A DNA stretch of 25,248 bases from a virus (taxonomy: Duplodnaviria; Heunggongvirae; Uroviricota; Caudoviricetes). The stretch covers positions 1-25,248 of the IMG/VR virus record IMGVR_UViG_2609459844_000006; one strand, written 5' to 3'. Position 1 is the stretch's first letter. Each line of letters starts with the position of its first letter. The translations under genes were made by a program, and so were the position numbers. Under the pieces are notes generated by a model. It ran no database searches. It worked only from the letters and a program-made list of their open reading frames with translations, and had not been told where the DNA came from. Below, piece by piece: positions 8,324 through 23,869 of this stretch.

Positions 8324-8352
8324 TCAACAACCACAAAAGAGAGGAGTTAACC

Positions 8353-8598
8353 GTGGGTAACAGCAGCGAGACAAAAGATACAAACAGCGTGACCGCTAAA
8401 AGCGATGAAGGACAAATAACCATTTCCGAAGGAAAGATGCGGGTTTACATGTCATTCCAGCCAATTGTCCTTCCCCTTATTGGCGAGCTGATAAACGAGA
8501 TGATCCTTAGAGGGAGATCCGCGGAGGAAATACAGGCGGCAGTTGAAAGCGCCGCCCGTGGTTATTCAACGTTCTATCTTTCGTTTGTTCATGGCTAG
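8353..8598 (+). CDS. hypothetical small protein (start uncertain; alternative ATG at 8434)
   Basis: ORF with GTG start after GAGAGG; alternative ATG 8434 has AAGGAAAG SD. Converges on a minus-strand ORF, so one of the two may be non-coding. Confidence 0.3.
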   Translation: MGNSSETKDTNSVTAKSDEGQITISEGKMRVYMSFQPIVLPLIGELINEMILRGRSAEEIQAAVESAARGYSTFYLSFVHG

Positions 8599-8831
8599 CA
8601 CTGCGTACGTTGATATTGCTCTTCGGTTTCTTTTGATCTGGCGGACTCTATTTCCTTCAGTTTGTTTCGGTAAAGCTCACTGAAGACCAGTTCTGCATTG
8701 GTGATCAACTGAAAAACCTCTTCTGGCGACTTCTGGAATGTTTTGAAGTGACCAGACAAGACAAGATTCATGGCCAGATCGTGAGCGGCTTCTTCGGGAG
8801 ACTTGCCGTAAGGCAGTGAATTTACAGACAT
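8595..8831 (-). CDS. hypothetical small protein encoded antisense to early-right operon
   Basis: 78-aa ORF from ATG 8831 with strong AGGAGG SD 5 nt upstream. Confidence 0.4.
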   Translation of the reverse strand: MSVNSLPYGKSPEEAAHDLAMNLVLSGHFKTFQKSPEEVFQLITNAELVFSELYRNKLKEIESARSKETEEQYQRTQC

Positions 8832-8916
8832 GTCGAACCTCCTTCGGTTCTGTTGGTGTGAGAGCTTGCAGGCTATCACCGTCAGGAAGTTCGGCGCCAA
8901 TAATGGAGTTGCAGTA

Positions 8917-9465
8917 ATGAACGAACCGCAATGGAAAGTCGAACGTCAGCCTTCTTGGCTGGTGGTAGCGATTAAAAAAACGATTACCGAACTGCCTGGC
9001 GGGTATTCCGAAGCAGCTGAGTGGTTGGGTGTGACCGAGAACGCGCTGTTTAACCGCCTTCGCGTCGACGGGGATCAGATCTTCCCTATGGGATGGGCGA
9101 TGGTTTTACAGAAAGCAGCCGGTGTTAGCTACATAGCTGATGCGTTTTCTCGTCAAACAGATAACGGGATACACGTTCCGGGTGCGGTGCCAGATGACGA
9201 AAACGAAGAAATTGGCTTAAAGCTGGCCGAGCTGGTGGGGCGTCTCGGAGAACTGGTCAACGCTTACCGTTGGTATATCGACGATGGGGTTGTTGATAAG
9301 GGTGAGTGGCAAAGCCTTAACGACATTGCATATCAGTTCAGGGTAACTCTGATGACCTTTCTGAATTTGATTGCCCGTGTTTACTGCCTTCCAGAAAAGA
9401 GTGACGCCCGTGAGTGTGCAGCTCCGGGCGCCTTGGCGAACAACTCTTCGAGTATGGAGAAATAA
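8917..9465 (+). CDS. putative cII-like regulatory protein
   Basis: 182-aa ORF at the cII position (after cro, before replication gene), GGAG SD upstream; family assignment is positional and from memory, not verified. Confidence 0.4.
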   Translation: MNEPQWKVERQPSWLVVAIKKTITELPGGYSEAAEWLGVTENALFNRLRVDGDQIFPMGWAMVLQKAAGVSYIADAFSRQTDNGIHVPGAVPDDENEEIGLKLAELVGRLGELVNAYRWYIDDGVVDKGEWQSLNDIAYQFRVTLMTFLNLIARVYCLPEKSDARECAAPGALANNSSSMEK

Positions 9466-9637
9466 TCCGCATGAACAGTTTAACGGCTTTTAACCGTCTA
9501 CCGCAACTCAGGATGCTCCCTGTTTCGGGTACTCCGTTGTTTCGGTATGAACGCAGATTATCAAACCGCTGGGTACCGTGTAACCACAGTAGGGCGGTTT
9601 CAATTGTGGGGGTCTACAACCGGAGGGCAAAACGCCT

Positions 9638-9823
9638 GTGCGCGAACTTAACCGAAGGTTCAAAGACTACCGTGGAGTGCCAGTCCGTGTTATCCGCTGG
9701 GAGCCAGAAACACAGCGCGTTGTCTATCTGCGTGATGGCTACCCGCACGAATGCTTCAGCCCACTTGAGCATTTCAGGCGAAAGTTCAGGGAGATAACGG
9801 ACGATCATGAGCCAGATATTTGA
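9638..9823 (+). CDS. hypothetical small protein
   Basis: 61-aa ORF with GTG start and GGAGGG upstream; 3' end overlaps start of replication gene. Confidence 0.3.
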   Translation: MRELNRRFKDYRGVPVRVIRWEPETQRVVYLRDGYPHECFSPLEHFRRKFREITDDHEPDI

Positions 9824-10739
9824 AATCGTTCAATCGCTGTCGGGGCAAAGGAATAGCATCACCATTCCGGTCCCGTACCTCGATTATTTCTCCGGCGATC
9901 AGCAGGCGCATGCTTTGGGCGCTGTGCTAAACCAGCTCGTGTTCTGGTCTGGTAAATCAGATCTGAATGATGGCTGGTTTTATAAAGAGCACAGCGAGCT
10001 TGCGGCAGAGATTCGCGGCGTGAGTGAAGATCAGGTGCAGCGCCTGGTAAACAAGATTTGTACCCGCTGGCTACCAGGGGTTGTTGAAAAGGCGCAGCGA
10101 CAGGTAAACGGCACGAAAAAGACGCATTACCGTATCAATGGCGAAGCGCTAATCAATGTTTTATTCCCGGCAACGCTGGATTCCGCAGAATCGCGGAACG
10201 GGAAACGCGAAGTCGCGGAACCTATTCCGCAGAATCACGGAACCGAAAACGCAGAATCGCGGAACCCTAACCGCGAAGTCGCGGAACCTATTCTCTATAC
10301 AGATCATTACTCAGATCACCACAAACAGATCATTAACCCCTCTTGTCCGGTTGCGCCGCAACCAGACCCTGAGGTGTTGATCACTGATAACGCCATCCTG
10401 GTTTTAACTCATTTGAACCAGGTAAGCGGCTCCCGGTACCAGAAATCTAAAACCTCTCTGGAAAACATACGTGCCCGTCTGCGTGAAGGTTATACCGTCA
10501 GCGACTTAACGCTGGTGATTGACCTCAAGCATGAACACTGGAACGGCAATGACGTGCAGTATCAGTACATGCGGCCTGAAACTCTGTTTGGGCCGAAAAA
10601 ATTTGAGGGTTATCTGCAAAGCGGGCTCCGCTGGGATAAGAAAGGCCGTCCCCCTCGTGAAAGCTGGGGCGAGAAGAAACATGACCCGATGAAGTTCGGC
10701 CCGGTAGATACCAAAATTCCAGAGGGATTCAGAGGATGA
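9807..10739 (+). CDS. phage replication initiator (O-like; conserved phage C-terminal domain)
   Basis: 310-aa ORF at the O position; internal DNA iterons within the coding sequence as in lambda O; C-terminal region resembles the conserved phage replication C-terminal domain. Confidence 0.65.
   Translation: MSQIFEIVQSLSGQRNSITIPVPYLDYFSGDQQAHALGAVLNQLVFWSGKSDLNDGWFYKEHSELAAEIRGVSEDQVQRLVNKICTRWLPGVVEKAQRQVNGTKKTHYRINGEALINVLFPATLDSAESRNGKREVAEPIPQNHGTENAESRNPNREVAEPILYTDHYSDHHKQIINPSCPVAPQPDPEVLITDNAILVLTHLNQVSGSRYQKSKTSLENIRARLREGYTVSDLTLVIDLKHEHWNGNDVQYQYMRPETLFGPKKFEGYLQSGLRWDKKGRPPRESWGEKKHDPMKFGPVDTKIPEGFRG
10183..10293. repeat. ori-like iterons (five ~18-22 bp direct repeats, core GAATCGCGGAACC / GAAGTCGCGGAACCTATTC)
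   Basis: Direct repeats at about 10183-10199, 10206-10227, 10226-10243, 10250-10267 and 10271-10293 inside the replication gene, encoding the repeated peptide AESRNGKREVAEPIP. Confidence 0.55.
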
Positions 10740-13809: not shown

Positions 13810-14520
13810 GTGTATGGAGCGCTGAGAAACATGAATCAACAAGACCTGAACTTTGTCAGAATAGAACTGCGTCGCGCGCTACCTGACCTCTCTGGGGGAA
13901 CAAAAGGGCAGCTTGAGGCTTTCAGTGAACACCCACCAGCAGACAAAAATGCCACCCCGCGCCGTGGCATTCATCTCGTTGAACTCGAGGGAGAGGAGGG
14001 GCCTCGCTTTGTTAACTCTCTTTCCGCACCACTTTATGTGCTGGAAACACGCAGCCGCCGCAGACCAATGGCGCCAATAAAGGATATGGAGTTTGCATAC
14101 GCACCGTGGCGCCGTGCTGTTAATGCTCTCGACGATTACCAGCAGGCCTGGCTGCGTTACTGCTACGGCTTTGATTTGAGCTATAAACACCAGGTGATAA
14201 TGTGTGAGCACGTCTGGAAAAACTATCAGGATTGCCTCATTAAAAACCCGATGCAGTCCCGCGTGGTAAAGAAACTGATCGGCCTGGTATGGCTGGCAGG
14301 TCAGGAGGTTGCCGCCGAAAGGAACAATGAAACCTATAAGGATTATGCTGGCGCGGCGTTGGCCCGCATGGTTAGCGTTGACCGTTCGACATGGTTGCGT
14401 GTCTATTCAGGGCACTGGGCTGGGTTAAAGGCCGCTTTTATCCAGCTTGATGAGTCTGCGCTGGCTATAGCTCTTGAATACTATGAGGAAGAAGAAGCCC
14501 TCAAAGTGGCAGAAATGTGA
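13810..14520 (+). CDS. putative late-gene antiterminator (Q-like); start uncertain (GTG 13810 or ATG 13831)
   Basis: Immediately upstream of a promoter-like element and a short-transcript intrinsic terminator preceding the late/lysis region; assignment is positional. Confidence 0.45.
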   Translation: MYGALRNMNQQDLNFVRIELRRALPDLSGGTKGQLEAFSEHPPADKNATPRRGIHLVELEGEEGPRFVNSLSAPLYVLETRSRRRPMAPIKDMEFAYAPWRRAVNALDDYQQAWLRYCYGFDLSYKHQVIMCEHVWKNYQDCLIKNPMQSRVVKKLIGLVWLAGQEVAAERNNETYKDYAGAALARMVSVDRSTWLRVYSGHWAGLKAAFIQLDESALAIALEYYEEEEALKVAEM

Positions 14521-14550
14521 AGTAAATTTCACTATCTCCTTCAAACTCGC

Positions 14551-14579
14551 TTGCAAAATGCAACAAAATAAGCCATATT
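14551..14579 (+). promoter_or_regulatory. candidate late promoter (PR'-like): TTGCAA -17 nt- CATATT
   Basis: -35-like TTGCAA (14551-14556) and weak -10-like CATATT (14574-14579), about 35 nt upstream of an intrinsic terminator; eye-called only. Confidence 0.25.
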
Positions 14580-14612
14580 TGAAGCATATTTGATATGTTG
14601 CCAAAGTTCTAT

Positions 14613-14640
14613 AAACCCGCCAATGAGCGGGTTTTTTAAT
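14613..14640 (+). terminator. intrinsic terminator (tR'-like) downstream of Q-like gene
   Basis: AAACCCGC-CAATGA-GCGGGTT hairpin followed by TTTTTT. Confidence 0.7.
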
Positions 14641-14988
14641 TTTGCGGATAACTTTTTAATTGCTGGAAAGAGTGTTTTTTCGTTTTGATAGGAAAAAACG
14701 ATGAGTCGGTAACACAAGGCTCCAATGTGCGTAAGTATGATGGATATGATAGTTATGCACAGTATGTCAACAGCGTTCTGCTATTAATTATGTTGTGAAT
14801 AACCTTTTTTGTTGATAACTATTTTTTCTGTGGATAAGTCTATGGGTTTATTAAATTTTTATGCACAAGTAGAACGCTAATGATCCTGTACAATCCCGTA
14901 AAAGCTTCAATACTGATGACAGCAAGATAAAAACCTAACCAGTGAAGCTATTGAAAACATACAGGATTTGGTTTTCTTTGGGAAAATT

Positions 14989-15744
14989 ATGTCAGGACAG
15001 CCTGAGTCAAAAGAACAAGAACTGCTTACAACTATCCTCGATTACTTCCAGAAGGGAGAAATCCCGGATACAGAAACTATTTCGGAAATAGAGCACGATA
15101 TTGCTAAACTTCCAATAAGTGAGCGCGCACATGCGTATGCTTGGCTCAATGGCACTCTTGGGCGTCACTCTGATGCTGTACGTTTATTCAAAGACGCGAT
15201 GAGCTCTGGGAATTCCACGATCGCGCAAAACTACTTGGCGTATCTTTCTCGTTCGGCTCATAACTATGAGCATCGCGTTGAGTTGTTTAGATTGGTTGAA
15301 CTTTTCCCCTCACACGAACTGAGGCTTGTTGCAAGAAACGCTGCATTTTGTATCGGCAATGATAAATTGGTTAAAAAGTTCTCCCTCAAAATGGCTGCTC
15401 TTTATGATGGTCAGGAGCGAGAGGATATAATCAATCAGGGAAACTATATGGTTGAACAGATTGTTGATTTCAAAAACGCTACCCGTCTTTCTTCTAGAGA
15501 ACTAGAAGTTCTTTGTGATCGAGCTGAAGAGATTGCGAACAAGCGTGGTATTAACTGTTCAAGTGTTAGCTATTACCTTGGGGGTGATGATGACAATGCA
15601 TTCATCGTCAGAGCCCAAACTGCTGATCCGCAGGTTTTAGCTGAAATGAACATGGAACTGTTGGTTTTGCTCTCAGATGATAGTTATCGGAACAGTCCTT
15701 TTACATCCTGGTTCCAAAGTGATGAAAAACGAGGGATTTACTGA
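14989..15744 (+). CDS. hypothetical alpha-helical protein, cargo gene A of Q-to-lysis moron
   Basis: Start at ATG 14989 (MSGQPESKEQ...); AT-rich; no recognisable catalytic motif; stop overlaps start of gene B by 1 nt (TGATG). Confidence 0.5.
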   Translation: MSGQPESKEQELLTTILDYFQKGEIPDTETISEIEHDIAKLPISERAHAYAWLNGTLGRHSDAVRLFKDAMSSGNSTIAQNYLAYLSRSAHNYEHRVELFRLVELFPSHELRLVARNAAFCIGNDKLVKKFSLKMAALYDGQEREDIINQGNYMVEQIVDFKNATRLSSRELEVLCDRAEEIANKRGINCSSVSYYLGGDDDNAFIVRAQTADPQVLAEMNMELLVLLSDDSYRNSPFTSWFQSDEKRGIY

Positions 15745-16148
15745 TGAGCGTAACTGGGAAGGATTTTATTTTTTTTGCTGGTAAGTGCATTTCTCACAAC
15801 GATGAAATCGGTTACAGAAACGCCATTGGTCGCGCGTATTATGGAGTTTATCATGAAACACTTGATAAGCTTGAGAAGTGCCCAAACAAGTCATCACACC
15901 AAGCTGTTCGTGACTACCTTACAAATGACGCATGGTTAAAAGGAAATGAGCCGTTTGAAAAAATGAAACTCATTTCTATGGGAACAATGCTAAGACATTT
16001 GCATACCCGCCGTAAATGGGCAGATTACGAGCTTGATAGAACTTTAAGTAAGGCTGATGCAGAAGCTATATTAATCATGGCTAATAAAGCTATAGATACC
16101 CTTCAGCAAATGTATGAGCAGGTTTATCCATCCGAACCTGCTGCTTGA
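15744..16148 (+). CDS. hypothetical protein with Rx6H HEPN-like motif, cargo gene B of Q-to-lysis moron
   Basis: 134-aa ORF; motif GRAYYGVYH (R-x6-H) fits the HEPN Rx4-6H signature, though HEPN motifs are more often C-terminal; followed by two tandem intrinsic terminators. Confidence 0.5.
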   Translation: MSVTGKDFIFFAGKCISHNDEIGYRNAIGRAYYGVYHETLDKLEKCPNKSSHQAVRDYLTNDAWLKGNEPFEKMKLISMGTMLRHLHTRRKWADYELDRTLSKADAEAILIMANKAIDTLQQMYEQVYPSEPAA

Positions 16149-16164
16149 TTATCTATTCGAAATA

Positions 16165-16187
16165 ACCTCGCTTAGGCGGGGTTTTTT
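16165..16187 (+). terminator. intrinsic terminator 1 after cargo operon
   Basis: CCTCGC-TTAG-GCGGGG stem-loop (one G:U pair) followed by TTTTTTT. Confidence 0.6.
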
Positions 16188-16197
16188 TATGTCTTCG

Positions 16198-16220
16198 CAC
16201 CTCCATTTCGGAGGTGTTTT
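16198..16220 (+). terminator. intrinsic terminator 2 after cargo operon
   Basis: Perfect 7-bp stem CACCTCC-ATTTC-GGAGGTG followed by TTTT. Confidence 0.65.
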
Positions 16221-16358
16221 GCTGTGGAAATGGGCGGCTGGTGGGTGTTAGCGCACCCGGCCAGCCATCAGCTCATGCTTTCAGGTCACAAGCTAACCAA
16301 GGCCCACTGCTTTAGCGCAAAAGCAACGTGAGCCTATCAGAGTTACGCTTACTGATCT

Positions 16359-17411
16359 ATGGAAAATACTGTAAAAATAAACAGTATCGAGTTAATCAAC
16401 GCTGATAGCCTGCATTACGTCGCCACCCTCCCGGATAACTCTATTGATCTGATAGTTACGGATCCGCCTTACTTCAAAGTGAAGCCCAACGGCTGGGACA
16501 ACCAATGGAAAGGGGACGAGGACTACTTACGCTGGCTTGATAGCTGTCTGGCTGAGTATGCTCGCGTTCTTAAACCTGCTGGCAGCATTTACCTGTTTTG
16601 CGGTCACCGACTGGCCTCAGACATAGAGATTATGATGCGTGCCCGGTTCAACGTTTTGAATCATATAATTTGGGCAAAACCATCGGGCCGCTGGAATGGT
16701 TGTAACAAAGAAAGCCTGCGTGCGTACTTTCCATCTACGGAACGGATTTTGTTTGCAGAGCGCTATCCTGGCCCGTACACAGGTAAAGAGGATGTTTACG
16801 AAAGGAAAAGCACAGAGCTAAAGCAGCACATTATGACGCCGCTGATTGATTACTTCCGTAATGCCCGTGAATCACTGGGTGTCAGTGCGAAAGAAATAGC
16901 TGAGGCAACCGGAAAGAAAAACATGGCGTCACACTGGTTTGGTGCAAGCCAATGGCAACTACCGAATGAAGTGGACTACAAAAAATTACAGGAACTATTC
17001 ACGCGGATCGCTATCGATAAGCACATTCAGCAGAAGCTTGAACATCCTCACCACCAGCTGGTGGCTACCTACCAGTCATTAAACCGCAAGTATTCAGAAT
17101 TGCTGGAGGAATACAAAATCCTTCGGCGCTGCTTCTCTGTTTCCGCTCTTGTTCCGTATACCGACGTATGGACGCATAAGCCTGTTCAGTTTTATCCAGG
17201 CAAACATCCATGCGAAAAACCTGCCGATATGCTGAAGCAGATCATTAGCGCCAGCAGCAGGCCGGGGGATATCGTTGCCGATTTCTTTATGGGTTCTGGT
17301 TCAACGGTGAAAGCTGCAATAGCACTTGGCCGTCGGGCTATCGGTGTAGAACTGGAAGCAGACAGGTTTATTCAGACCACTGAAGAGGTGGAAAAACTGA
17401 ACAAAACATAA
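16359..17411 (+). CDS. orphan DNA methyltransferase (N6-adenine/N4-cytosine, beta-class motif order)
   Basis: DPPY motif (LIVTDPPYF) near N-terminus and FxGxG SAM-binding motif (FFMGSGST) near C-terminus; no adjacent restriction endonuclease candidate. Confidence 0.8.
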   Translation: MENTVKINSIELINADSLHYVATLPDNSIDLIVTDPPYFKVKPNGWDNQWKGDEDYLRWLDSCLAEYARVLKPAGSIYLFCGHRLASDIEIMMRARFNVLNHIIWAKPSGRWNGCNKESLRAYFPSTERILFAERYPGPYTGKEDVYERKSTELKQHIMTPLIDYFRNARESLGVSAKEIAEATGKKNMASHWFGASQWQLPNEVDYKKLQELFTRIAIDKHIQQKLEHPHHQLVATYQSLNRKYSELLEEYKILRRCFSVSALVPYTDVWTHKPVQFYPGKHPCEKPADMLKQIISASSRPGDIVADFFMGSGSTVKAAIALGRRAIGVELEADRFIQTTEEVEKLNKT

Positions 17412-17557: not shown

Positions 17558-17944
17558 ATGTCCGATCCGATTTCCGGTTCTGGGATGGCTGGTGGTGTCC
17601 TGACGGGGGCCAGCGTCTATGGATTTCTGTCCGGAACCGATTACGGCGTGGTGTTTGGCGCATTTGCCGGGGCTGTATTTTACATTGCAACCGCAGCGGA
17701 TCTAAGTGCAGCGCGCCGACTGGCATATTTTCTGGTGTCGTATATCGCGGGGATCCTTTGTTCCGGGCTGGTGGGTTCAAAGCTGGCTCAGGCTACCGGC
17801 TACAGTGATAAACCACTGGATGCCATTGGCGCCGTAATCGTTTCTGCTTTAGCCGTCAAAATCCTGACATTCCTGAATAATCAGGATGTCGGCTCGCTGG
17901 TGGCGCTGATAACGCGCCGGGGAGGTTCAGGTGGTACAAAATGA
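17558..17944 (+). CDS. putative holin (small multi-TM membrane protein)
   Basis: 128-aa ORF with AGAGGGGG SD; Gly/Ala-rich hydrophobic segments consistent with 3 TM helices; immediately upstream of endolysin. Confidence 0.55.
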   Translation: MSDPISGSGMAGGVLTGASVYGFLSGTDYGVVFGAFAGAVFYIATAADLSAARRLAYFLVSYIAGILCSGLVGSKLAQATGYSDKPLDAIGAVIVSALAVKILTFLNNQDVGSLVALITRRGGSGGTK

Positions 17945-18212
17945 CCCATCGGCAACTTTTAATGCATTGCTTTGTGCTGGGGTAGTGTTAACCCTGATGT
18001 TTTACCGTCGCGGCGACTCGCGACATCGACCGTGGATATCTCGCTTAGCGTGGCTGCTTACGGTCATCTACAGCGCCGTTCCGCTGGCGTATCTGTGCGG
18101 TATTTACCCGTACTCATCATGGGCCACTATCGGGGCCAACTTTATTTTCCTGTCCGTGCTGGTCGCCGTAAGAGGCAACGTGGCACGTCTGGTTGATCAT
18201 CTGAGGCACTAA
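17931..18212 (+). CDS. second small membrane protein (holin/antiholin-like)
   Basis: GTG start with GGAGG SD 5 nt upstream; 93 aa with hydrophobic helices; overlaps upstream gene by 14 nt and abuts endolysin start. Confidence 0.45.
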   Translation: MVQNDPSATFNALLCAGVVLTLMFYRRGDSRHRPWISRLAWLLTVIYSAVPLAYLCGIYPYSSWATIGANFIFLSVLVAVRGNVARLVDHLRH

Positions 18213-18826
18213 TGAACCAATCACAATTTCAGCAGGCGGCTGGTATCAGCGCCGGGCTTTCTGCGCGCTGGTTTCCGCACATTGACGCGGCAATGAAAGA
18301 GTTTGGCATTACAGCTACGAACGATCTGGCTATGTTCATCGCCCAGGTTGGGCATGAGTCTGCTGGCTTTACCTCGCTGGTGGAAAGCTTCAACTACTCG
18401 GTAGAGGGGCTGAAGAAAACCTTTGGTAAACGGCTTACTCCTTATCAGTGTGAAATGCTGGGTCGTGTCGATGGTAAACAGGTGGCCCACCAGCCGCAAA
18501 TAGCCAATCTGGTTTATGGTGACCGCATGGGGAATAACAGCCAGGGTGACGGCTGGAAATATCGCGGTCGCGGCCTGCTGCAAATCACGGGTCGTGAGAA
18601 CTACACCAAATGCGGCACGGCGCTGAAACTTGACCTTATCAGTACGCCAGAATTGCTAACGCAAGAGCGACATGCGGCTCATTCTGCTGCGTGGTACTTC
18701 ACGTTACGCGGTTGTCTGATGTATTCGGGTGACGTGGCACGCGTTACGCAGATTATTAACGGCGGACAGAACGGCATTAAAGACCGCCGTGAACGTTACG
18801 CCAAAGCTAAAGCTGCACTGGTGTGA
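18212..18826 (+). CDS. endolysin (glycoside hydrolase family 19-like lysozyme)
   Basis: 204-aa soluble protein with MFIAQVGHESAGF segment resembling GH19 chitinase-type phage endolysins; positioned between holin-like and spanin-like genes. Confidence 0.7.
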   Translation: MNQSQFQQAAGISAGLSARWFPHIDAAMKEFGITATNDLAMFIAQVGHESAGFTSLVESFNYSVEGLKKTFGKRLTPYQCEMLGRVDGKQVAHQPQIANLVYGDRMGNNSQGDGWKYRGRGLLQITGRENYTKCGTALKLDLISTPELLTQERHAAHSAAWYFTLRGCLMYSGDVARVTQIINGGQNGIKDRRERYAKAKAALV

Positions 18827-18833
18827 GGTCAGT

Positions 18834-19103
18834 ATGGGGCTTGAAATGATTATCGGCCTGGTTGTTGCTGTGCTGGCTGCAATTGCAGGTGCTTTTGGGC
18901 TGGGCAAATCACGCGGTACCAGTATCGCTGAAACAAAAGCGGACCAACAACGCACTGAAGAACGTGCAATAGCTATTGAAGCGGTCGCAGAACGCCGGGT
19001 AGAAACAACAAAAGGAGCCAGGGATGTACAGCAGACTGTTAATCATCTTCCTGATGACGATGTTGACCGTGAGTTGCGCGAAAACTTTACCCGCAAAACC
19101 TGA
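18834..19103 (+). CDS. putative i-spanin (Rz-like; N-terminal TM helix + charged helical region)
   Basis: ATG 18834 after GAGG; N-terminal TM helix (IIGLVVAVLAAIAGAFGL) then charged alpha-helical segment; 3' end overlapped by lipoprotein ORF in another frame. Confidence 0.45.
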   Translation: MGLEMIIGLVVAVLAAIAGAFGLGKSRGTSIAETKADQQRTEERAIAIEAVAERRVETTKGARDVQQTVNHLPDDDVDRELRENFTRKT

Positions 19104-19248
19104 AGTAACGGACACGGCCTGTGACTGGGTAAGGCCAATCTATCTGACTGAACATGATATCGATGTTATGGACAAGCTTACAAAAAGAGACATCCTGATG
19201 CACAATAAGACGACTTCAAAAAACTGTCCAAAAAAAGATAATAATTAG
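19024..19248 (+). CDS. putative o-spanin (Rz1-like lipoprotein)
   Basis: Signal peptide with lipobox LTVSC; ORF start embedded in the 3' end of the Rz-like gene as in Rz/Rz1 pairs; not proline-rich, so assignment is tentative. Confidence 0.45.
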   Translation: MYSRLLIIFLMTMLTVSCAKTLPAKPEVTDTACDWVRPIYLTEHDIDVMDKLTKRDILMHNKTTSKNCPKKDNN

Positions 19249-19427
19249 ATATAGAATATTCAATTAAATCATATGGTTGCATTGGGTGTCGGTGATGGTG
19301 AACAACGTAATGCCTCTTTGAGAGTTCAGATATTAATGTTATAGTAACTCATTGTTTATTAGACATTAGTGTTTATTATAATTGGTATTTACTAATAAAT
19401 ACTTTTTGCATAATGCTATAGGTATAC

Positions 19428-19751
19428 ATGATGTCATCATTTAGTAAAATAACATCTGCCTTAGATAAATTATCTAAGTTCAGATCTGATAGTTTTGAAG
19501 TAGTTAAAGGTTATATTGATTTCGTTATGCCAATGGTGGCTAAGGCACAAGAACTCAAAATGAAAGAAGATGATGGAACTATCTCCGATGAAGAAAAGAT
19601 TCTGATTAAATTTTATGACGCGCATTTTGAAGATTTTAAAACGGCATTGAACAAAATTTCTCAGTATAATGATTCGGTATCTGATAACTATATTAAGGCA
19701 ATTGATTTGCTTGGTGATGTTAAGGAGAACATTAACAATGCAGATAAATAA
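19428..19751 (+). CDS. hypothetical soluble acidic protein, AT-rich cargo gene 1
   Basis: 107-aa ORF in strongly AT-rich DNA; no recognised motif. Confidence 0.4.
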   Translation: MMSSFSKITSALDKLSKFRSDSFEVVKGYIDFVMPMVAKAQELKMKEDDGTISDEEKILIKFYDAHFEDFKTALNKISQYNDSVSDNYIKAIDLLGDVKENINNADK

Positions 19752-20118
19752 TGTCTCAGATATGTCTAATCTGCTTGATTCATTGAAAAAACAAGTAGGT
19801 AAAGCTGAAGATGCTGCTGATGATGCAGAGGGTAAGGCTAACTCCAGTTCAAAAAACGAAGGTAAAACACGCAGTGCGCTCACGATTAGTTTTTTAGTCG
19901 GTTTCTTCGTGTTGATTGCACTTAGTGGCTTGTTTGTGCTTTGGTATAATAACAGTGTTGTGTCATGGGTTATAAATTTGCAACAGGCAGGAGTTTCAGA
20001 TGCCTCAACTTATCTGAAACCTTTGGAGTTAGAAAAAGTCTTGTCTGTAATAATCGGAGCATTAGGCACATCACTTGGTTTTATTATTGGTTATTATTTT
20101 AAAGAAAAAAATAAATAG
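19738..20118 (+). CDS. hypothetical 2-TM membrane protein, AT-rich cargo gene 2
   Basis: Start at ATG 19738 with AAGGAGAAC SD; two hydrophobic helices (ALTISFLVGFFVLIALSGLFVLW and LSVIIGALGTSLGFIIGYYF); overlaps gene 1 by 14 nt. Confidence 0.45.
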   Translation: MQINNVSDMSNLLDSLKKQVGKAEDAADDAEGKANSSSKNEGKTRSALTISFLVGFFVLIALSGLFVLWYNNSVVSWVINLQQAGVSDASTYLKPLELEKVLSVIIGALGTSLGFIIGYYFKEKNK

Positions 20119-20240
20119 CTGTTTTCAGACTTAAACACCCTCGATTACTAACTTCAAGTTTATGGGGGTGTTATATCAAACATAATTAATTCAATGCGTT
20201 CTGAAATATTATTTAAATTTTAAAATCTAGTAGATACAAT

Positions 20241-20264
20241 GCCTCGCAATCGCGGGGCTTTTTT
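20241..20264 (+). terminator. intrinsic terminator after AT-rich cassette
   Basis: GCCTCGC-AATC-GCGGGGC hairpin followed by TTTTTT. Confidence 0.55.
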
Positions 20265-20363
20265 ATGCGCATCGCACGTACACATCGAAGAAATCTTAGT
20301 CATCAGTCCGGACGGGCGCTTACATACCCAGTCCGCCCGTTACCTTTTAAAATGGAAAAGCCA

Positions 20364-21107
20364 ATGAAAGCCAAAGAATTTTTGAACAGCCATAAACTTG
20401 TGGTTATCAGTGATTTTATAAAAAGCATTGAAGCCATCCCTGAACAGAAATGGCTGCATGACTTTATGCAGGATGAATTAGCCTATCTGATTGAACGTGG
20501 TATGAACTGGGCAAAATTCGATGATGATGTGCCTGCTGAGATGATTCGAAGCGCTGCATGGTTAGTGGCTATGTCTAAAGCCTACTCAGGAAATTATCCC
20601 GTGAAACAGGTAGCCAATCCATCTCAAATAATTCAGGCATGGAGTGTTAAAAAAGATGGCAAACAGTATGCAGCCACTTTTAAAATAGCCATTGATACCA
20701 GTGAGGCTATTGCTGCTGTTGAAGTACTGGGTAAGAAAATTAAAGATGTTATTAATTCATTATCTATCGAAGATGAAATTAAAATTAAAAAATATGAATT
20801 ATCACATCTGACTTCCAGAAGTATGAATAAAGAAATGGTTGAACGTATCAGGCATATAGTTGATAAAGCTGCGAAGCATTGTCTTGATGGCCGGGCTATC
20901 CCAGAACAGAATAATAAAATTTCAGAAGCAACTTTCTGCTCTGTTGAGAGCACCGGCAGCATTGAACAGCAAGCGTTGAGCACTGTACTTGGAAATACCT
21001 TACACAATATTCCAGTCAGTGATGCTTCTTCTGTGGCGGTTGAGTTAGCTCAGGCTGTGAAAGCAGCATTTGATGTGCTGGAAAATAAGAATGCCGCCAC
21101 GCGCTAA
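20364..21107 (+). CDS. hypothetical protein (248 aa), function unknown
   Basis: Start chosen at ATG 20364 (MKAKEFLNSH...); ORF-track start 20265 lies inside the upstream terminator T-run and is unlikely. Confidence 0.45.
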   Translation: MKAKEFLNSHKLVVISDFIKSIEAIPEQKWLHDFMQDELAYLIERGMNWAKFDDDVPAEMIRSAAWLVAMSKAYSGNYPVKQVANPSQIIQAWSVKKDGKQYAATFKIAIDTSEAIAAVEVLGKKIKDVINSLSIEDEIKIKKYELSHLTSRSMNKEMVERIRHIVDKAAKHCLDGRAIPEQNNKISEATFCSVESTGSIEQQALSTVLGNTLHNIPVSDASSVAVELAQAVKAAFDVLENKNAATR

Positions 21108-21453
21108 ACGCCCATGCCGGCACAAGGGATGTGCGGCAATCACCAACGATACCAGCGGGTATTGTGAACAACACCGCCAGCAGCATGCCGGTGATGGCTG
21201 GCGCAACTATCAGGCAGGTAAAAGCAGGCAAGAACGAGGGTACGGTCGGCCCTGGGAAATCATACGGGCGCGCATCCTCCGGCGTGATCAATACCTGTGT
21301 CAGAAGCATCGACGGCAGAAGATAGCGAAGAAAGCGACCAGCGTTGACCACATCATTCCAAAAGCTCATGGCGGCACTGATGACGATTCCAACCTAGAGT
21401 CGTTATGCTGGGAATGCCACAGAGCGAAGACAGCAAGAGAACGTATTCGATGA
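21091..21453 (+). CDS. HNH endonuclease (phage packaging-associated type)
   Basis: Classic HNH motif VDHIIPKAHGGTDDDSNLESLCWECHRAKT plus N-terminal Cys cluster; start assumed at ATG 21091. Confidence 0.75.
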   Translation: MPPRAKRPCRHKGCAAITNDTSGYCEQHRQQHAGDGWRNYQAGKSRQERGYGRPWEIIRARILRRDQYLCQKHRRQKIAKKATSVDHIIPKAHGGTDDDSNLESLCWECHRAKTARERIR

Positions 21454-21538
21454 TAATATTCACTGCTGTAATGCATAAGAACAGTTTCTACATTCATGCA
21501 GATACCGGAAGATAAACGCGCAGCTTAAAGAGTCAGAC

Positions 21539-23869
21539 ATGGCGGCCAGCGTCGCCAAACAACGGGTGGCTGCGGCGGGAAAGGCAGCGGCAGAAGCGGA
21601 GGCACTGGAAGCACTCGGAAAGTCGAAGCTCTCGGATGCTATGCGTCTTATCAGCGCCAGGAACTATGAGATTTCTCTGTCAGCGCGTGCCGCCGCCGCG
21701 GGTACCGCGTTGCTGAACGGTGCACTGGCGATGGTAGGCGGGCCGGTCGGTCTGGGGATTATTGCGCTGGTTTCTGGCGTGACGGCACTGTGGTCTGCCT
21801 ACAGCAAAGCTGAAGAAAAAACGAAAGCCCTGAATGCGGCATTACTGCAAGGCAATAGTGGCGCGTCACTCAGCCTGACCCGGATCCGGGCGCTGAATAA
21901 AAGCCTGGGTGACACGGATGGCTCCATGAAGGCAGTGACGGCCGCGGTTAAGGCCGGGTTCAGCGGCGAGATGCTGGATCGCGTGTCCTCACTCGGTAGC
22001 CAGCTGGAATCACTGGGTGGGAATGCTGATGAGCTGGTCCGACAGCTGTCATCCATCAGTGGCGATCCGATCAAAGCGATGCAGGATGCCACGCAGCAGG
22101 GATACGAATTTAATGCTGCACAGATAGAACAGATTGCCACCCTGGCCCGCCTGGGTAAAACCGCCGAGGCGGTGGCGCTGGTGCAGAAAATCATGCTTGA
22201 TGACGTTGCGGACAAAATGAAGGAGCAACAGCGTCAGACTGAGGAGAGCATTGGCTGGTGGGAGAAGCTGAAGAAAGCTGTTTCTGAAGGGCTTGAGGGC
22301 TACGCTTCAGCGCAGATTGAGACCAGTCGCGCGATGGCGGCCGCGGTGGGGGTGGATATTGATGAGCCCGCCCGAAAGCTCAAAGAGAAGCGGGACGAAG
22401 AGAATAAACAGGAGGAAGACCGGGCTCAGGCCGCCCGTCAGCGCCAGGATGAGCAGAGCAAAGAAATCACCGCCCGGATAAATCTGGCCGCCTGGATCAA
22501 GGCCGGGACGGATAAAACCCGTCTTGCAGCAGAAGCCACCGCCGATCTCAGTACCCGCTATAAGGCCGGAAAAATCACCGCTGATGAGTACGCTTCTGCC
22601 CTGAGAGGGATAGACAAACTCTACGGTGATAAAAAAACCGGGGTGTCCGCCCATCAGGACAGCGAGGGTGTTCGCCGTCTGGCGCAACTGAAGCAACAGG
22701 AAGTGGTGCTGAAAGCGCAGGGGCGTGAAACGGAGCGGATGGGTGAAAGTCAGAAAAAATTACTGGCTTTTGAACAGGAAATCGCGTCTTACGCCGGGAA
22801 AAAACTGACAAAGGCCCAGGAAAGCGTACTGGCTATGCAGGATCAACTGCGTGCCCAGCTTGAAACTAACGCAGCCCTGGAGAAGCAAAACGCACAACGT
22901 AATCTGGCTGTGACGCTTGAAAAACAACTCCGGGATGTCAGGGAGGAAACGGCACGCCGTCAGCAGGAGCAGAATAACGCTGCTGCTCAGGTGACGATGA
23001 GCGACCGGGAATATGAGCAGATGGTCACCCTGCAACAGATCCGTGAGGATTTTGCGCAGAAACAGAAAGCGCTCGATGAGGAGGTAAAAGACCATTCATC
23101 AGTGCTTTACCAGGCACAGACACAGGCGCTTGCCGAAGAAATGCAGAGGCAGACTGAAATCGTCAAAAAAGGCGCCGAAGACAAAAAAGCGGCTGAGGAG
23201 GATTTTGCGGGAGCTGCCGCCGCAGGCATGAAGAACTGGATGGACAAGGCCGGTAACTATGCACAGCAGATAAAGGACGCTGTGTCGAGCGCCATGGACG
23301 GGCTGGCGGATAATATTGTCGCCACCCTTAACGGCAATAAAAGCTCATGGCGTGACTGGGGGACGATGATACTCCAGACCATTCAGAAAATTCTGGTGAA
23401 TGCCGCGCTGGTTAACGGCCTGAAGGCACTGGGCGGATCACTGGGTGGTGCCGGAGGGATCCTGGGAGGGATTGGCAGTGCAATTTCCGGTGTGGTGGGT
23501 AATGCCCGGGGGGGCGTCTATGACTCTCCGGGACTCAGTGCTTACAGCTCTACTGTCGTCGACAGGCCCACGCTGTTTCCGTTTGCCAAAGGGGCGGGAC
23601 TGATGGGGGAAGCGGGGCCGGAAGCGATTATGCCGCTGACCAGAGACAGTAAAGGTCGTCTGGCCGTCACCGCGACGGGAATGGAAGGGACGGGAGGTAG
23701 CGTGGTGGTTAATCAGCAGTTCAGTGTGCACATACAGAATGACGGCAGTAACGGTGAAATAGGCCCCGGCGCGCTGAAGATGGTGTATGAGATTGCCGAA
23801 CAGGCAGCAATGAAAACACTGACTGTGCAGGGGCGTGATGGTGGCAGGCTGAGCGGAGCATACAGATGA
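21539..23869 (+). CDS. tail tape measure protein (lambda gpH-like), probably N-terminally truncated
   Basis: 776-aa Ala/Gln/Glu-rich coiled-coil protein; C-terminal region (GPEAIMPLTRDSKGRLAV ... NDGSNGEIGPGALKMVYEIAEQ ... RDGGRLSGAYR) matches the gpH C-terminus; N-terminus appears to lack roughly the first 80 residues of lambda H. Confidence 0.8.
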   Translation: MAASVAKQRVAAAGKAAAEAEALEALGKSKLSDAMRLISARNYEISLSARAAAAGTALLNGALAMVGGPVGLGIIALVSGVTALWSAYSKAEEKTKALNAALLQGNSGASLSLTRIRALNKSLGDTDGSMKAVTAAVKAGFSGEMLDRVSSLGSQLESLGGNADELVRQLSSISGDPIKAMQDATQQGYEFNAAQIEQIATLARLGKTAEAVALVQKIMLDDVADKMKEQQRQTEESIGWWEKLKKAVSEGLEGYASAQIETSRAMAAAVGVDIDEPARKLKEKRDEENKQEEDRAQAARQRQDEQSKEITARINLAAWIKAGTDKTRLAAEATADLSTRYKAGKITADEYASALRGIDKLYGDKKTGVSAHQDSEGVRRLAQLKQQEVVLKAQGRETERMGESQKKLLAFEQEIASYAGKKLTKAQESVLAMQDQLRAQLETNAALEKQNAQRNLAVTLEKQLRDVREETARRQQEQNNAAAQVTMSDREYEQMVTLQQIREDFAQKQKALDEEVKDHSSVLYQAQTQALAEEMQRQTEIVKKGAEDKKAAEEDFAGAAAAGMKNWMDKAGNYAQQIKDAVSSAMDGLADNIVATLNGNKSSWRDWGTMILQTIQKILVNAALVNGLKALGGSLGGAGGILGGIGSAISGVVGNARGGVYDSPGLSAYSSTVVDRPTLFPFAKGAGLMGEAGPEAIMPLTRDSKGRLAVTATGMEGTGGSVVVNQQFSVHIQNDGSNGEIGPGALKMVYEIAEQAAMKTLTVQGRDGGRLSGAYR

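What the first reader, a model, noticed from the sequence alone, without database searches (positions are those of the whole stretch)
19249..20264. AT-rich two-gene cassette (soluble protein + 2-TM membrane protein) after the spanin genes
Markedly AT-rich DNA starts right after the lipoprotein gene. It carries an AT-rich promoter-like leader (19249-19427), two overlapping genes (19428-19751 and 19738-20118) and an intrinsic terminator (20241-20264), so it looks like an independently acquired moron. Small soluble protein plus 2-TM membrane protein pairs are typical of abortive-infection or superinfection-exclusion modules with membrane-disrupting effectors; it could alternatively be a lysis-timing accessory.
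Basis: partly seen in the sequence, partly recalled or inferred. Interest (0 to 1): 0.55.

Follow-up and report, generated by a model that had tools for sequence, protein, structure and literature searches.

The report
Conserved two-gene membrane moron in prophages
This AT-rich insert in a defective E. coli prophage is a self-contained two-gene cassette, a small cytoplasmic helical protein plus a small two-pass membrane protein with an invariant glycine zipper, that recurs at many different sites in many phages, has no known function, and is a reasonable but untested candidate for a new phage-exclusion system.

Summary
GC drops from about 0.53 to 0.29-0.39. Two overlapping genes lie at 19431(19428)-19751 (A) and 19738-20118 (B), with a promoter-like site upstream and an intrinsic terminator at 20241-20264. 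Both genes are under purifying selection (dN/dS about 0.2 and 0.07).

A is predicted as a two-helix hairpin. B is a 2-TM protein, N-in/C-in, with an invariant GxxxGxxxG...YYFK second helix. They match PHROG families 21707 and 20796 (function unknown) and nothing in Pfam, NCBIfam, PADLOC or PDB.

The pair is always coupled and always AT-rich. A terminator follows it in 28 of 39 loci. It occupies at least five unrelated phage sites, including the lysis-packaging junction and the P2 old/tin hotspot. It also survives in decayed prophage remnants. Only 1 of 80 prophages with the same holin carries it.

It is therefore a mobile moron, not a lysis component. A membrane-acting exclusion or abortive-infection role is the best guess (about 0.35) and is untested. 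Known-defence neighbours are few, and the local hotspot showed no known defence families.

The parts
19024..19248 (+). o-spanin lipoprotein gene. It is the left flank and the last gene of the lysis cassette. Its 3' end is already AT-rich.
   Evidence: phrog_1275 Rz-like spanin, E 6.8e-31. GC profile. A copy of the cassette in a decayed prophage (L067) begins at window 19026.
19318..19345 (+). Sigma-70 promoter-like site: -35 TTGAGA (19318-19323), 16-nt spacer, TG-extended -10 TATAGT (19340-19345). The predicted transcription start is near 19352.
   Evidence: 10/12 match with TG. This block and about 45 nt downstream are nearly invariant between the window-type and the 76%-identical L022/L023 cassettes, while the sequence further upstream is not conserved. 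Expression was not tested.
19346..19430 (+). 5' leader with a conserved inverted repeat (19368-19378 / 19393-19403) and a weak AGG Shine-Dalgarno sequence at 19420-19422.
   Evidence: Inverted repeat, 11 nt, 91% complementary. Conservation shown in the alignment. Function unknown.
19431..19751 (+). orfA: a 106-aa soluble protein (107 aa from the alternative ATG at 19428), predicted as a hairpin of two long helices. It is the fast-evolving partner of B.
   Evidence: phrog_21707, E 1.5e-13. AF2 model with helices 2-48 and 54-106, pLDDT 83. Near-invariant R19, Y80 and Y88. dN/dS about 0.2. No hydrophobic segment.
19738..20118 (+). orfB: a 126-aa inner-membrane protein. It has a variable cytoplasmic N-terminal helix (1-44), TM1 (about 45-71, motif TRSxLT...YN), a 28-aa periplasmic loop, and TM2 (about 100-121) with an invariant G110xxxG114xxxG118-YYFK motif. 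Predicted topology is N-in/C-in.
   Evidence: phrog_20796, E 2.2e-48. 121 homologue clusters at 90% identity and 223 at 50% identity. Alignment A1. AF2 model with helices 6-83 and 98-125, pLDDT 76. Hydropathy and flanking charges. dN/dS 0.06-0.07.
20134..20172 (+). GC-rich 10-bp hairpin just after the orfB stop codon, without a clear U-tract.
   Evidence: RNA fold of 20119-20300, z-score -2.4.
20241..20264 (+). Intrinsic terminator (GCCTCGC-AATC-GCGGGGC followed by TTTTTT), the 3' end of the transcription unit.
   Evidence: An analogous hairpin plus T-run lies within 220 nt after B in 28 of 39 related loci, with unrelated stem sequences. Homology to all relatives ends at 20297.
20364..21107 (+). 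orfC: a 247-aa protein (alternative ATG at 20352). It is a separate AT-rich cargo gene inserted between the cassette and the HNH gene, and it is not part of the A-B unit.
   Evidence: Present only in the window and its identical copies L068/L071. Relatives L021/L066/L069/L070 lose homology at 20297. No Pfam, PHROG, PADLOC or NCBIfam family. Only two IMG/VR relatives were found.
21091..21453 (+). HNH endonuclease gene, the right flank. In intact relatives it precedes the small terminase gene.
   Evidence: PF01844, E 5e-14. Gene order in L066/L069/L070.

Best explanation
The region is a moron: a horizontally mobile, self-contained transcription unit (promoter-like site, two translationally coupled genes, terminator) carried as accessory cargo by a defective HK97-like E. 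coli prophage.

Shown here: the pair is a conserved unit. A roughly 100-aa cytoplasmic two-helix hairpin protein (A) always sits directly upstream of a roughly 125-aa two-pass inner-membrane protein (B). B's transmembrane helices are the most conserved part of the system and carry an invariant glycine zipper.

Inferred mechanism:
1. The cassette is expressed from the repressed prophage.
2. B can self-assemble through the TM2 glycine zipper into a small channel or otherwise lethal membrane lesion.
3. A binds B's variable cytoplasmic N-terminal helix and keeps it inactive, or couples it to a signal.
4. Infection by another phage releases B, the membrane depolarises and the infection aborts.

This would be a miniature functional analogue of lambda RexA/RexB. 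None of these four steps is demonstrated.
For: Moron status:
- GC is 0.31-0.39 against flanks of 0.37-0.59, lower than the flanks in 44 of 45 loci.
- A conserved promoter-like block lies upstream.
- A terminator follows B in 28 of 39 loci, but only 3 loci have one upstream.
- 79 of 80 prophages with a holin at least 91% identical lack the pair, and the spanin-to-HNH distance varies from 479 to 4166 nt.
- A-B is 99.6-99.7% identical between prophages whose endolysins are about 70% identical.

Independence from lysis. The pair also lies:
- between P2 gpA and the portal/terminase genes;
- between the tail chaperones and the tape measure gene in Proteus prophages;
- next to an integrase gene;
- between the portal and capsid genes in a podophage-like contig;
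- in remnants without lysis genes (L067; L168-170).

Retention in decayed prophages: the window itself lacks the terminase-to-tail-tube genes. In Enterobacter bugandensis the icd remnant keeps little more than A-B and a KwaA-family gene, in at least 24 contigs.

Conflict-gene neighbours:
- the P2 old/tin hotspot (PMC9122126);
- AbiLi/AbiLii directly downstream in L007;
- a Lit-like Peptidase_U49 near the L067 copy;
- an Acb2/Tad1-hairpin gene adjacent in Klebsiella prophages.

Effector-like B:
- TM segments are 73% identical on average, against 25% for B's N-terminus and 26% for A.
- The GxxxGxxxG-YYFK motif is invariant from Enterobacterales to Patescibacteria.
- A glycine zipper in TMD2 is used by the S21 pinholin for helix packing (PMC9025707).

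Obligate pairing: overlaps of 8-14 nt or gaps of 1-10 nt in nearly all loci, and all five distant homologues examined have an 86-103-aa helical ORF directly upstream. The one pseudogenised copy has lost B, not A (L059).
Against: - No sequence or fold similarity to any known defence, exclusion, toxin or holin family: PADLOC found nothing even at E<=1, Pfam and NCBIfam nothing significant, the PDB profile searches nothing, and Foldseek nothing below E 0.4.
- Forty representatives of other cargo genes at the same lysis-to-HNH hotspot gave no PADLOC hit. They include Rha, KilA-N and antirepressor domains, so this hotspot is not demonstrably a defence hotspot.
- Defence neighbours are few: one AbiL locus, one KwaA lineage and one P2-like lineage.
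- One neighbour is an anti-defence family.
- In the sub-lineage where A carries an N-terminal TM segment, A's start overlaps the o-spanin stop and there is no separate leader. There the pair is probably expressed with the late genes.
- Promoter-like matches are not enriched over shuffles in this AT-rich DNA.
- A and B's N-terminus do not co-vary more than A and B's core do (Spearman 0.31 against 0.36), so the proposed A-to-B N-terminus contact has no specific support.
- Toxicity, expression and phage resistance are all untested.
Confidence: 0.35

Rival explanations
1. Superinfection exclusion without cell death. B sits in the inner membrane and blocks genome entry by incoming phages, for example by interfering with the tape-measure or inner-membrane channel step. 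This is how the HK97 gp15 moron or T4 Imm work. A would act as an assembly or stability partner.
For: The architecture is a moron encoding a small inner-membrane protein. In Proteus prophages the pair occupies the tail-chaperone to tape-measure site, which is exactly where the HK97 gp15 exclusion moron lies (PMC3594210). The pair is retained in defective prophages. The periplasmic loop is moderately conserved at 41%.
Against: There is no similarity to YebO/gp15, Imm or SieA. The most conserved parts are the TM helices and their cytoplasmic ends, not the periplasmic loop. Known entry blockers do not need an obligate, translationally coupled cytoplasmic partner. Homologues extend to Patescibacteria, which have very different envelopes and phages.
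Confidence: 0.2
2. Toxin-antitoxin-like addiction module. B is a membrane toxin and A its cognate protein antitoxin, comparable to the type IV pair CptA/CptB (YgfX/YgfY). Its main effect would be to stabilise the prophage or remnant rather than to defend against phages.
For: The gene order is soluble-first, membrane-second with translational coupling. The pair persists in remnants. The only pseudogenised copy lost B while keeping A. The partner has been swapped in Patescibacteria for a protein whose best, weak match is the ribbon-helix-helix repressor CopG (E 0.037). Some of those loci add a weakly Cas2-like third gene (Pfam E 0.0024), which recalls GhoS. This last comparison rests on my own knowledge.
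Against: There is no match to the Cpta_toxin, GhoT or other toxin families. A has no DNA-binding or protease-labile features that I could detect. The CopG and Cas2 matches are below significance. This function would overlap with abortive infection, so it is not cleanly distinct from the main explanation.
Confidence: 0.12
3. Lysis-associated late function. A pinholin-like or antiholin-like pair would tune lysis timing or depolarise the membrane at the end of the lytic cycle.
For: In most Enterobacterales loci the pair lies directly after the spanin genes, in the orientation of the late operon. In the lineage with a TM-bearing A, the A start overlaps the o-spanin stop. B has 2 TM segments, N-in/C-in topology and a TM2 glycine zipper, as the S21 pinholin does. 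There is a weak PHROG holin hit (phrog_4237, E 0.037).
Against: 79 of 80 prophages with the same holin, endolysin and spanin set lack it. The window already has two holins. The pair occurs at four non-lysis sites and in remnants with no lysis genes. It has its own terminator and a conserved promoter-like block. TM1 is strongly hydrophobic and flanked by Lys/Arg, unlike a SAR domain. There is no significant holin family match.
Confidence: 0.08
4. Counter-defence or other host-modulating cargo. For example, the pair might neutralise a host membrane-acting immune effector or alter envelope physiology.
For: An Acb2/Tad1-hairpin anti-defence gene lies immediately upstream in Klebsiella prophages. 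The hotspot holds very mixed cargo, with 62 clusters in 40 loci. In one locus a RhoGAP-domain effector-like gene is the neighbour.
Against: A is unrelated to the Acb2-like neighbour (hhalign probability 0.1). Retention in fixed, non-inducible remnants argues for a benefit to the host rather than to the phage. No known anti-defence protein has this architecture, to my own knowledge.
Confidence: 0.12

Closest known systems
PHROG families phrog_21707 (A) and phrog_20796 (B)
   Same: Direct HMM membership: E 1.5e-13 over the full length of A and E 2.2e-48 over the full length of B.
   Different: Both families are annotated 'unknown function'. Every source name among 121 B clusters and 36 A clusters is 'hypothetical' or 'uncharacterised'. 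A search for the two PHROG ids found no paper that mentions either family.
HK97 gp15 moron (YebO-like superinfection exclusion protein)
   Same: Same kind of genetic element: an AT-shifted insert with its own promoter and terminator that encodes a small inner-membrane protein in an HK97-like prophage (PMC3594210). In Proteus prophages the A-B pair occupies the same chaperone-to-tape-measure slot.
   Different: There is no sequence relation, since Pfam YebO does not match. This cassette has two genes, not one. B has two TM helices and a long cytoplasmic helix. An intact relative (L066) carries a separate YebO gene at the gp15 site in addition to A-B.
Lambda RexA/RexB abortive-infection system
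   Same: A soluble protein is encoded directly upstream of, and coupled to, a membrane protein, and both are carried by a prophage. The proposed logic is the same: a cytoplasmic partner controls a membrane channel that depolarises the cell. The details of Rex come from my own knowledge.
   Different: There is no homology. A is about 106 aa where RexA is 279 aa. B has 2 TM segments and 126 aa where RexB has 4 TM segments and 144 aa. No function has been shown for A-B.
Phage 21 pinholin S21 68 (class II holin)
   Same: A small protein with 2 TM segments, N-in/C-in topology and a glycine zipper in TMD2 (the zipper in S21 68 is described in PMC9025707).
   Different: B's TM1 is not SAR-like. B has a 44-residue cytoplasmic N-terminus with Lys/Arg next to TM1. 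The gene lies after the spanins in its own unit rather than ahead of the endolysin. There is no holin family match. The pair is absent from most phages with the same lysis cassette.
Membrane-toxin TA pairs: type IV CptA/CptB (YgfX/YgfY) and type V GhoT/GhoS
   Same: A small soluble protein is paired with a small 2-TM inner-membrane protein. In distant relatives of B a weakly Cas2-like gene is adjacent, which recalls the Cas2-like fold of GhoS. These comparisons come from my own knowledge and were not tested.
   Different: There is no Pfam match to these families. Toxicity and neutralisation are untested. The gene order differs from ghoST for the Cas2-like gene.

Membership tests
Phage moron (Juhala/Hendrix definition, as summarised in PMC3594210) | Base composition differs from that of the surrounding genes | tested here: met
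   GC is 0.29-0.39 against about 0.53 in the flanks. The same holds in 44 of 45 related loci.
Phage moron (Juhala/Hendrix definition, as summarised in PMC3594210) | Own terminator | tested here: met
   A hairpin plus T6 at 20241-20264. A terminator-like site follows B in 28 of 39 loci, with unrelated stems.
Phage moron (Juhala/Hendrix definition, as summarised in PMC3594210) | Own promoter that allows expression from the repressed prophage | tested here: inconclusive
   A 10/12 extended -10 site at 19318-19345 is conserved across diverged cassettes. The count of promoter-like matches is not above shuffles, only 24 of 39 loci have a comparable match, and no expression data exist.
Phage moron (Juhala/Hendrix definition, as summarised in PMC3594210) | An addition between genes that are adjacent in related phages | tested here: met
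   79 of 80 prophages with a holin at least 91% identical lack it, and some have only 479 nt between the spanin and HNH genes.
phrog_20796 / phrog_21707 | Full-length HMM match | tested here: met
   B: E 2.2e-48 over residues 2-126 of 126. A: E 1.5e-13 over residues 6-105.
Known anti-phage defence systems (PADLOC-DB v2) | HMM match of a component to a catalogued system protein | tested here: not met
   No family matched A, B or orfC at E<=1.
Lambda RexAB | Homology to RexA/RexB, and a four-TM channel subunit | tested here: not met
   No Pfam or PADLOC match. B has two hydrophobic segments.
Holin / pinholin | Membership of a holin sequence family | tested here: not met
   No Pfam holin family matches at E<=0.1. 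The only match is phrog_4237 at E 0.037.
Holin / pinholin | Encoded within the lysis cassette and needed alongside the endolysin | tested here: not met
   The pair lies after the spanins in a separate unit, is absent from 79 of 80 phages with the same cassette, and is present at non-lysis sites.
Holin / pinholin | Two TM domains, N-in/C-in, with a glycine zipper in TMD2 (S21 68 type) | tested here: met
   Hydropathy and charge distribution. Invariant G110xxxG114xxxG118. This is a prediction only.
Holin / pinholin | SAR-type TMD1 that can leave the membrane | tested here: not met
   TM1 is Phe/Leu/Val-rich with a Kyte-Doolittle value up to 2.69. It is preceded by KNEGKTRS and a 44-residue cytoplasmic helix.
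HK97 gp15 / YebO exclusion proteins | YebO-family sequence | tested here: not met
   No Pfam hit for B. A separate YebO gene is present in relative L066.
Toxin-antitoxin module | B is toxic and A neutralises it | not testable with these tools
   Only indirect signs exist: translational coupling, and one locus where B is frameshifted while A is intact.

The most novel reading that the evidence does not exclude
A-B is the founding example of a previously unrecognised, very widespread family of miniature two-component, phage-borne immune systems. In this reading a glycine-zipper 2-TM channel effector (about 223 clusters at 50% identity, from Enterobacterales and Vibrio to Patescibacteria, Prevotellaceae and Pirellulales) is gated by an interchangeable small cytoplasmic partner. 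The partner would be a helical hairpin in most phages and a ribbon-helix-helix-like protein, with or without a Cas2-like protein, in Patescibacteria. The system would kill or arrest the cell on infection.
Probability: 0.25. Interest if true: 0.7.

Novelty: new variant of a known kind. Interest (0 to 1): 0.5.

Why it matters
If the pair is a defence or exclusion system, it would be among the smallest two-gene membrane-effector systems known, at about 690 bp. It is absent from current defence catalogues and is carried by prophages across a very wide range of bacteria, so it would add to the unannotated share of prophage-encoded immunity.

The invariant glycine-zipper helix gives a direct handle for mutagenesis. 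The fast-evolving partner gives a handle for studying specificity.

Even if it is not a defence system, the data define a clean, portable moron that has been inserted at five or more classic cargo sites. That makes it a useful marker for such hotspots. The data also show that the lysis-to-HNH/terminase junction of HK97-like prophages is hypervariable, with 62 cargo clusters in 40 loci, most of them unknown.

Tried and rejected
Searches that found nothing useful:
- Family searches. Pfam, NCBIfam and PADLOC gave nothing significant for A, B or orfC. The weak hits were bPH_10 at E 0.007, a holin PHROG at E 0.037 and SAG1386 at E 0.083. All overlap TM segments and I dismissed them.
- PDB profile searches for A and B. 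Only rhodopsin or designed helical bundles at E>0.06.
- AF2 models followed by Foldseek against PDB (A) and BFVD (B). No match below E 0.4; helical hairpins are uninformative. The afdb50 library was unavailable.
- Named phages. tblastn against 50,697 phage records found B in only one, Klebsiella phage P7641, where it is annotated hypothetical; A was found in none.
- E. coli complete genomes. No megablast match.
- Rfam. No RNA family anywhere in the window.
- Literature. No paper mentions the two PHROG ids, and the other searches found none describing a similar pair.

Ideas tested and rejected:
- A is related to the neighbouring Acb2/Tad1-hairpin protein: rejected (hhalign probability 0.1).
- The lysis-to-HNH site is a hotspot of known defence systems: not supported (0 of 40 cargo representatives hit PADLOC).
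- A co-varies specifically with B's N-terminus: not supported.

Left unverified:
- The 294-aa gene next to KwaA is KwaB.
- The ribbon-helix-helix and Cas2-like readings of the Patescibacteria partners rest on sub-threshold hits.
Full report
**1. Observation**

- **Lysis cassette upstream.** It consists of a PF16931 holin (17558-17944), a PF05449 3-TM holin (17931-18212) and a GH19 endolysin (18212-18826). An embedded spanin pair follows at 18834-19103 and 19024-19248 (phrog_1026 and phrog_1275).
- **Composition.** GC in 300-nt windows drops from 0.51-0.54 to 0.29 at 19150-19450. It stays at 0.29-0.40 until about 20950.
- **Genes.** Two ORFs overlap by 14 nt: 19428-19751 (107 aa) and 19738-20118 (126 aa, with AAGGAG 9 nt upstream).
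- **Promoter-like site.** TTGAGA-16-TGtTATAGT lies at 19318-19345.
- **Terminator.** A hairpin with 7 pairs (6 GC) followed by T6 lies at 20241-20264.
- **Correction to the first gene's start.** In cassettes that are 76% identical, the first ATG is ATT. The conserved start is therefore ATG 19431.
- **Selection.** Nei-Gojobori comparisons give dN/dS of about 0.2 for A and 0.06-0.07 for B, so both are real genes.

**2. Where the window comes from**

- **Source.** The window is 100% identical over 5 kb to contigs of two E. coli assemblies, GCA_021449925.1 and GCA_000703525.1. It is absent from complete RefSeq E. coli genomes.
- **Gene order here.** Q antiterminator, two unknown genes, DNA methyltransferase, lysis cassette, A-B, orfC, HNH, then directly a 776-aa tape measure protein.
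- **Gene order in intact relatives (L066, L069, L070).** Lysis, A-B, small ORFs, HNH, Terminase_4, TerL, portal, protease, capsid, tail genes, tape measure.
- **Consequence.** The window's prophage has lost everything from the terminase to the tail tube and is defective.
- **Cassette boundary.** Homology of all relatives to the window stops at 20297, just past the terminator. orfC (20364-21107) is therefore a second, independent insertion.

**3. The two proteins**

*Protein B*

- **Database matches.** B matches phrog_20796 (E 2e-48, unknown function) and nothing significant in Pfam, NCBIfam or PADLOC.
- **Family size.** It has 121 relatives at the 90%-cluster level, all named hypothetical. They come from Enterobacterales, Vibrio and Photobacterium. 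An exhaustive profile search finds 223 clusters at 50% identity, all 38-228 aa long.
- **Conservation pattern.** The alignment shows a variable hydrophilic N-terminus. TM1 is bracketed by TRSxLT and YN. A loop of about 28 residues follows. TM2 has the invariant sequence G-T-S-L-G-F-I-I-G-Y-Y-F-K, a GxxxGxxxG glycine zipper.
- **Reach of the motif.** The same LGF(I/V)(I/M)GYYFK ending is kept in relatives from Patescibacteria, an alphaproteobacterial MAG, Prevotellaceae and Pirellulales.
- **Topology and model.** Flanking charges predict N-in/C-in. AF2 gives one long helix (6-83) running from the cytoplasm into TM1, and a second TM helix at 98-125, with pLDDT 76.
- **Rates of change.** Mean pairwise identity is 73% in the TM segments, 41% in the loop and 25% in the N-terminus.

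*Protein A*

- **Database matches.** A matches phrog_21707 (E 1.5e-13).
- **Divergence.** A single-sequence search finds only close relatives. A profile built from the ORFs found upstream of B in other loci retrieves 36 clusters.
- **Conserved residues.** R19, Y80 and Y88 are nearly invariant, in the motifs L..FR and YN.S...DY.
- **Model.** AF2 predicts a hairpin of two long helices, with pLDDT 83.

*Structure comparisons.* PDB profile searches and Foldseek gave no significant match for either protein.

**4. The pair is a unit**

- **Enterobacterales.** Every locus with enough upstream sequence has a roughly 90-165-aa soluble ORF directly ahead of the B homologue. The two ORFs overlap by 8-14 nt or are separated by 1-10 nt.
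- **Distant homologues.** All five examined have an 86-103-aa helical ORF 3-37 nt upstream.
- **Patescibacteria.** The upstream partner is instead an 80-aa protein whose best, non-significant PDB match is the ribbon-helix-helix repressor CopG (E 0.037). Four loci add a 92-aa gene with a sub-threshold Cas2 match (E 0.0024). These two matches are leads only.
- **Pseudogene.** One locus (L059) has a frameshifted B and an intact A.

**5. It is a moron, not part of the lysis cassette**

(a) *Composition.* The pair has 0.31-0.39 GC in hosts whose flanks range from 0.37 to 0.59. It is lower than the flanks in 44 of 45 loci.

(b) *Terminator.* A hairpin plus T-run lies within 220 nt after B in 28 of 39 loci. 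The stem sequences are unrelated. Only 3 loci have such a site upstream of A.

(c) *Promoter.* The -35, the extended -10 and about 45 nt of leader are nearly invariant between cassettes that are 76% identical overall. The sequence further upstream has diverged.

(d) *Absence from relatives.* Among 80 prophages whose holin is at least 91% identical to the window's, one carries A-B. The spanin-to-HNH distance ranges from 479 to 4166 nt. It holds 62 different cargo clusters in 40 loci.

(e) *Mosaicism.* A-B is 99.6-99.7% identical between prophages whose endolysins are about 70% identical and whose holins are 67-94% identical.

(f) *Other sites.*
- The lysis-packaging junction ahead of three different terminase types.
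- Between P2 gpA and the portal/terminase genes. This is the cos-proximal hotspot that holds old and tin in P2 and many validated defence systems (PMC9122126).
- Between the tail assembly chaperones and the tape measure gene in Proteus prophages. This is the site of the original HK97 gp15 moron (PMC3594210).
- Next to a lambda-type integrase.
- Between the portal and capsid genes in a podophage-like contig.

These points meet the published definition of a moron, apart from direct proof of expression.

**6. Clues to function**

*Points that favour a host-beneficial, conflict-related role*

- **Survival in decayed prophages.**
  - The window itself is defective.
  - L067 keeps an o-spanin fragment, A-B, umuDC and a Lit-like Peptidase_U49 next to an integrase.
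  - Serratia copies sit beside eroded terminase genes.
  - In Enterobacter bugandensis, a remnant at icd holds A-B, IS fragments, a KwaA-family gene with a 294-aa partner, and a terminase fragment. It is seen in at least 24 contigs.
- **AbiL neighbour.** AbiLi (E 9e-101) and AbiLii (E 3e-27) lie directly downstream in a Providencia chromosome.
- **P2 hotspot.** Three loci lie in the P2 old/tin hotspot.
- **Anti-defence neighbour.** In Klebsiella prophages the neighbour is an Acb2/Tad1-hairpin anti-defence gene. This marks the site as holding arms-race cargo, but it does not say which side A-B is on.

*Points against*

- **Other cargo at this hotspot.** Forty representatives of other cargo at the same lysis-to-HNH hotspot gave no PADLOC hit. 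Their only Pfam domains were Rha, KilA-N, antirepressor, ORF11CD3, DUF4145, HEAT and GrlR.
- **A late-operon sub-lineage.** In the sub-lineage whose A has an N-terminal TM segment, there is no leader and A abuts the o-spanin gene. That implies late-operon expression there.

**7. Proposed mechanism**

My best guess, at about 0.35, has three parts.

- **Effector.** B is the effector. Its TM helices are the most constrained part of the system. The invariant glycine zipper suggests tight homo-oligomeric helix packing, as used by the S21 pinholin (PMC9025707). The likely result is a small channel that collapses the proton motive force.
- **Regulator.** A is a cytoplasmic regulator. It is coupled in synthesis to B and evolves as fast as B's cytoplasmic N-terminal helix. 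It would either hold B inactive or relay an infection signal.
- **Analogy.** The logic resembles lambda RexA/RexB. There is no homology, and the proteins are far smaller.

What is shown: gene structure, conservation pattern, predicted topology and fold, pairing, mobility, and persistence in remnants. What is inferred: expression in the lysogen, oligomerisation, toxicity, the A-B contact, and any phage phenotype. The A-to-B N-terminus contact has no specific covariation support.

Rival explanations:
- Non-lethal entry exclusion of the gp15 or Imm kind (0.2).
- A TA-like addiction pair (0.12).
- Counter-defence or another host-modulating function (0.12).
- A lysis-timing accessory (0.08).

**8. 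Novelty and verdict**

- **Known kind.** As a genetic element this is a textbook moron.
- **New variant.** As a protein system it belongs to two PHROG families of unknown function. It has no link to any catalogued defence, exclusion, toxin or holin family. It is best described as a new variant of a known kind: a prophage accessory module made of a soluble protein plus a membrane protein.
- **Why it deserves a test.** It is small, widespread, highly portable and easy to assay.
- **Why interest is moderate.** The evidence for function is circumstantial, and the general idea would not surprise a specialist.

Noticed in passing
window 21091-23869 (HNH 21091-21453, tape measure 21539-23869): The HNH endonuclease gene is followed directly by a 776-aa tape measure gene. 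Intact relatives (L066, L069, L070) have the small and large terminase, portal, protease, capsid, connector, tail tube and chaperone genes in between. The window's prophage is therefore a deletion derivative that cannot make particles.
   Followed up: partly
window 20298-21107 (orfC 20364-21107, alternative ATG 20352): A second AT-rich cargo gene of 247 aa lies right after the cassette's terminator and overlaps the HNH start. It has no Pfam, PHROG, PADLOC or NCBIfam family. Only two IMG/VR relatives (52-55% identity) and a weak partial match in two Klebsiella phages were found.
   Followed up: partly
window 14000-16300 (ORFs 14968-15744 and 15744-16148) and 16359-17411: Another AT-rich stretch (GC 0.39-0.43) lies between the Q antiterminator and the lysis genes. 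From my own knowledge, this is the position where Stx phages carry stx. It holds two abutting genes of 258 and 134 aa with no Pfam hit on record in the identical contig L071, followed by an N6/N4 DNA methyltransferase.
   Followed up: no
window 6000-8100: A third low-GC stretch (0.40-0.43) contains convergent ORFs at 6309-7265 (+) and 7257-8051 (-). It was not examined.
   Followed up: no
window 19368-19403: There is an inverted repeat (AGTGTTTATTA / TAATAAATACT, 14 nt apart) in the predicted 5' leader of orfA. It lies inside the block that stays conserved between diverged cassettes. It could be an operator or an RNA hairpin.
   Followed up: partly
L011 5756-6563, L013 5708-6536, L012 5959-6614, L014 5698-6369 (Patescibacteria, Gammaproteobacteria MAG, Prevotellaceae): Distant B homologues keep the LGFIIGYYFK ending but are paired with an 80-aa protein that looks like a ribbon-helix-helix protein (CopG is the best PDB hit, E 0.037). 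They are followed by a conserved 92-aa gene with a sub-threshold Cas2 match (E 0.0024). In L013 the trio sits next to a methyltransferase and a MutH/Sau3AI-like nuclease.
   Followed up: partly
L168-L170, about 5400-10250 (Enterobacter bugandensis, next to icd): A minimal prophage remnant at the icd locus retains A-B, IS3 fragments, a KwaA-family gene with a 294-aa partner, and a terminase fragment. It recurs in many assemblies. I could not confirm that the 294-aa gene is KwaB.
   Followed up: partly
L161 4784-5068, L162 4775-5068, L164 4784-5068 (Klebsiella prophages): An Acb2/Tad1-hairpin (PF24729) anti-defence gene sits between the spanins and the A-B pair, in the same hypervariable slot.
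   Followed up: partly
L007 6708-8687 (Providencia sp. chromosome): A complete AbiL system (AbiLi E 8.6e-101, AbiLii E 3.4e-27) lies immediately downstream of the A-B pair.
   Followed up: yes
L066 19830-20009: An intact relative of the window's prophage carries a YebO-family (HK97 gp15-like) gene between the tail chaperone T gene and the tape measure gene. This lineage therefore holds a classic exclusion moron in addition to A-B.
   Followed up: no
L074-L153, region between the spanin and HNH genes: The lysis-to-HNH junction of these HK97-like prophages is hypervariable, with 62 protein clusters among 40 loci. Most have no family. A 485-aa plus 196-aa gene pair recurs in five loci and also in Klebsiella prophages.
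   Followed up: partly
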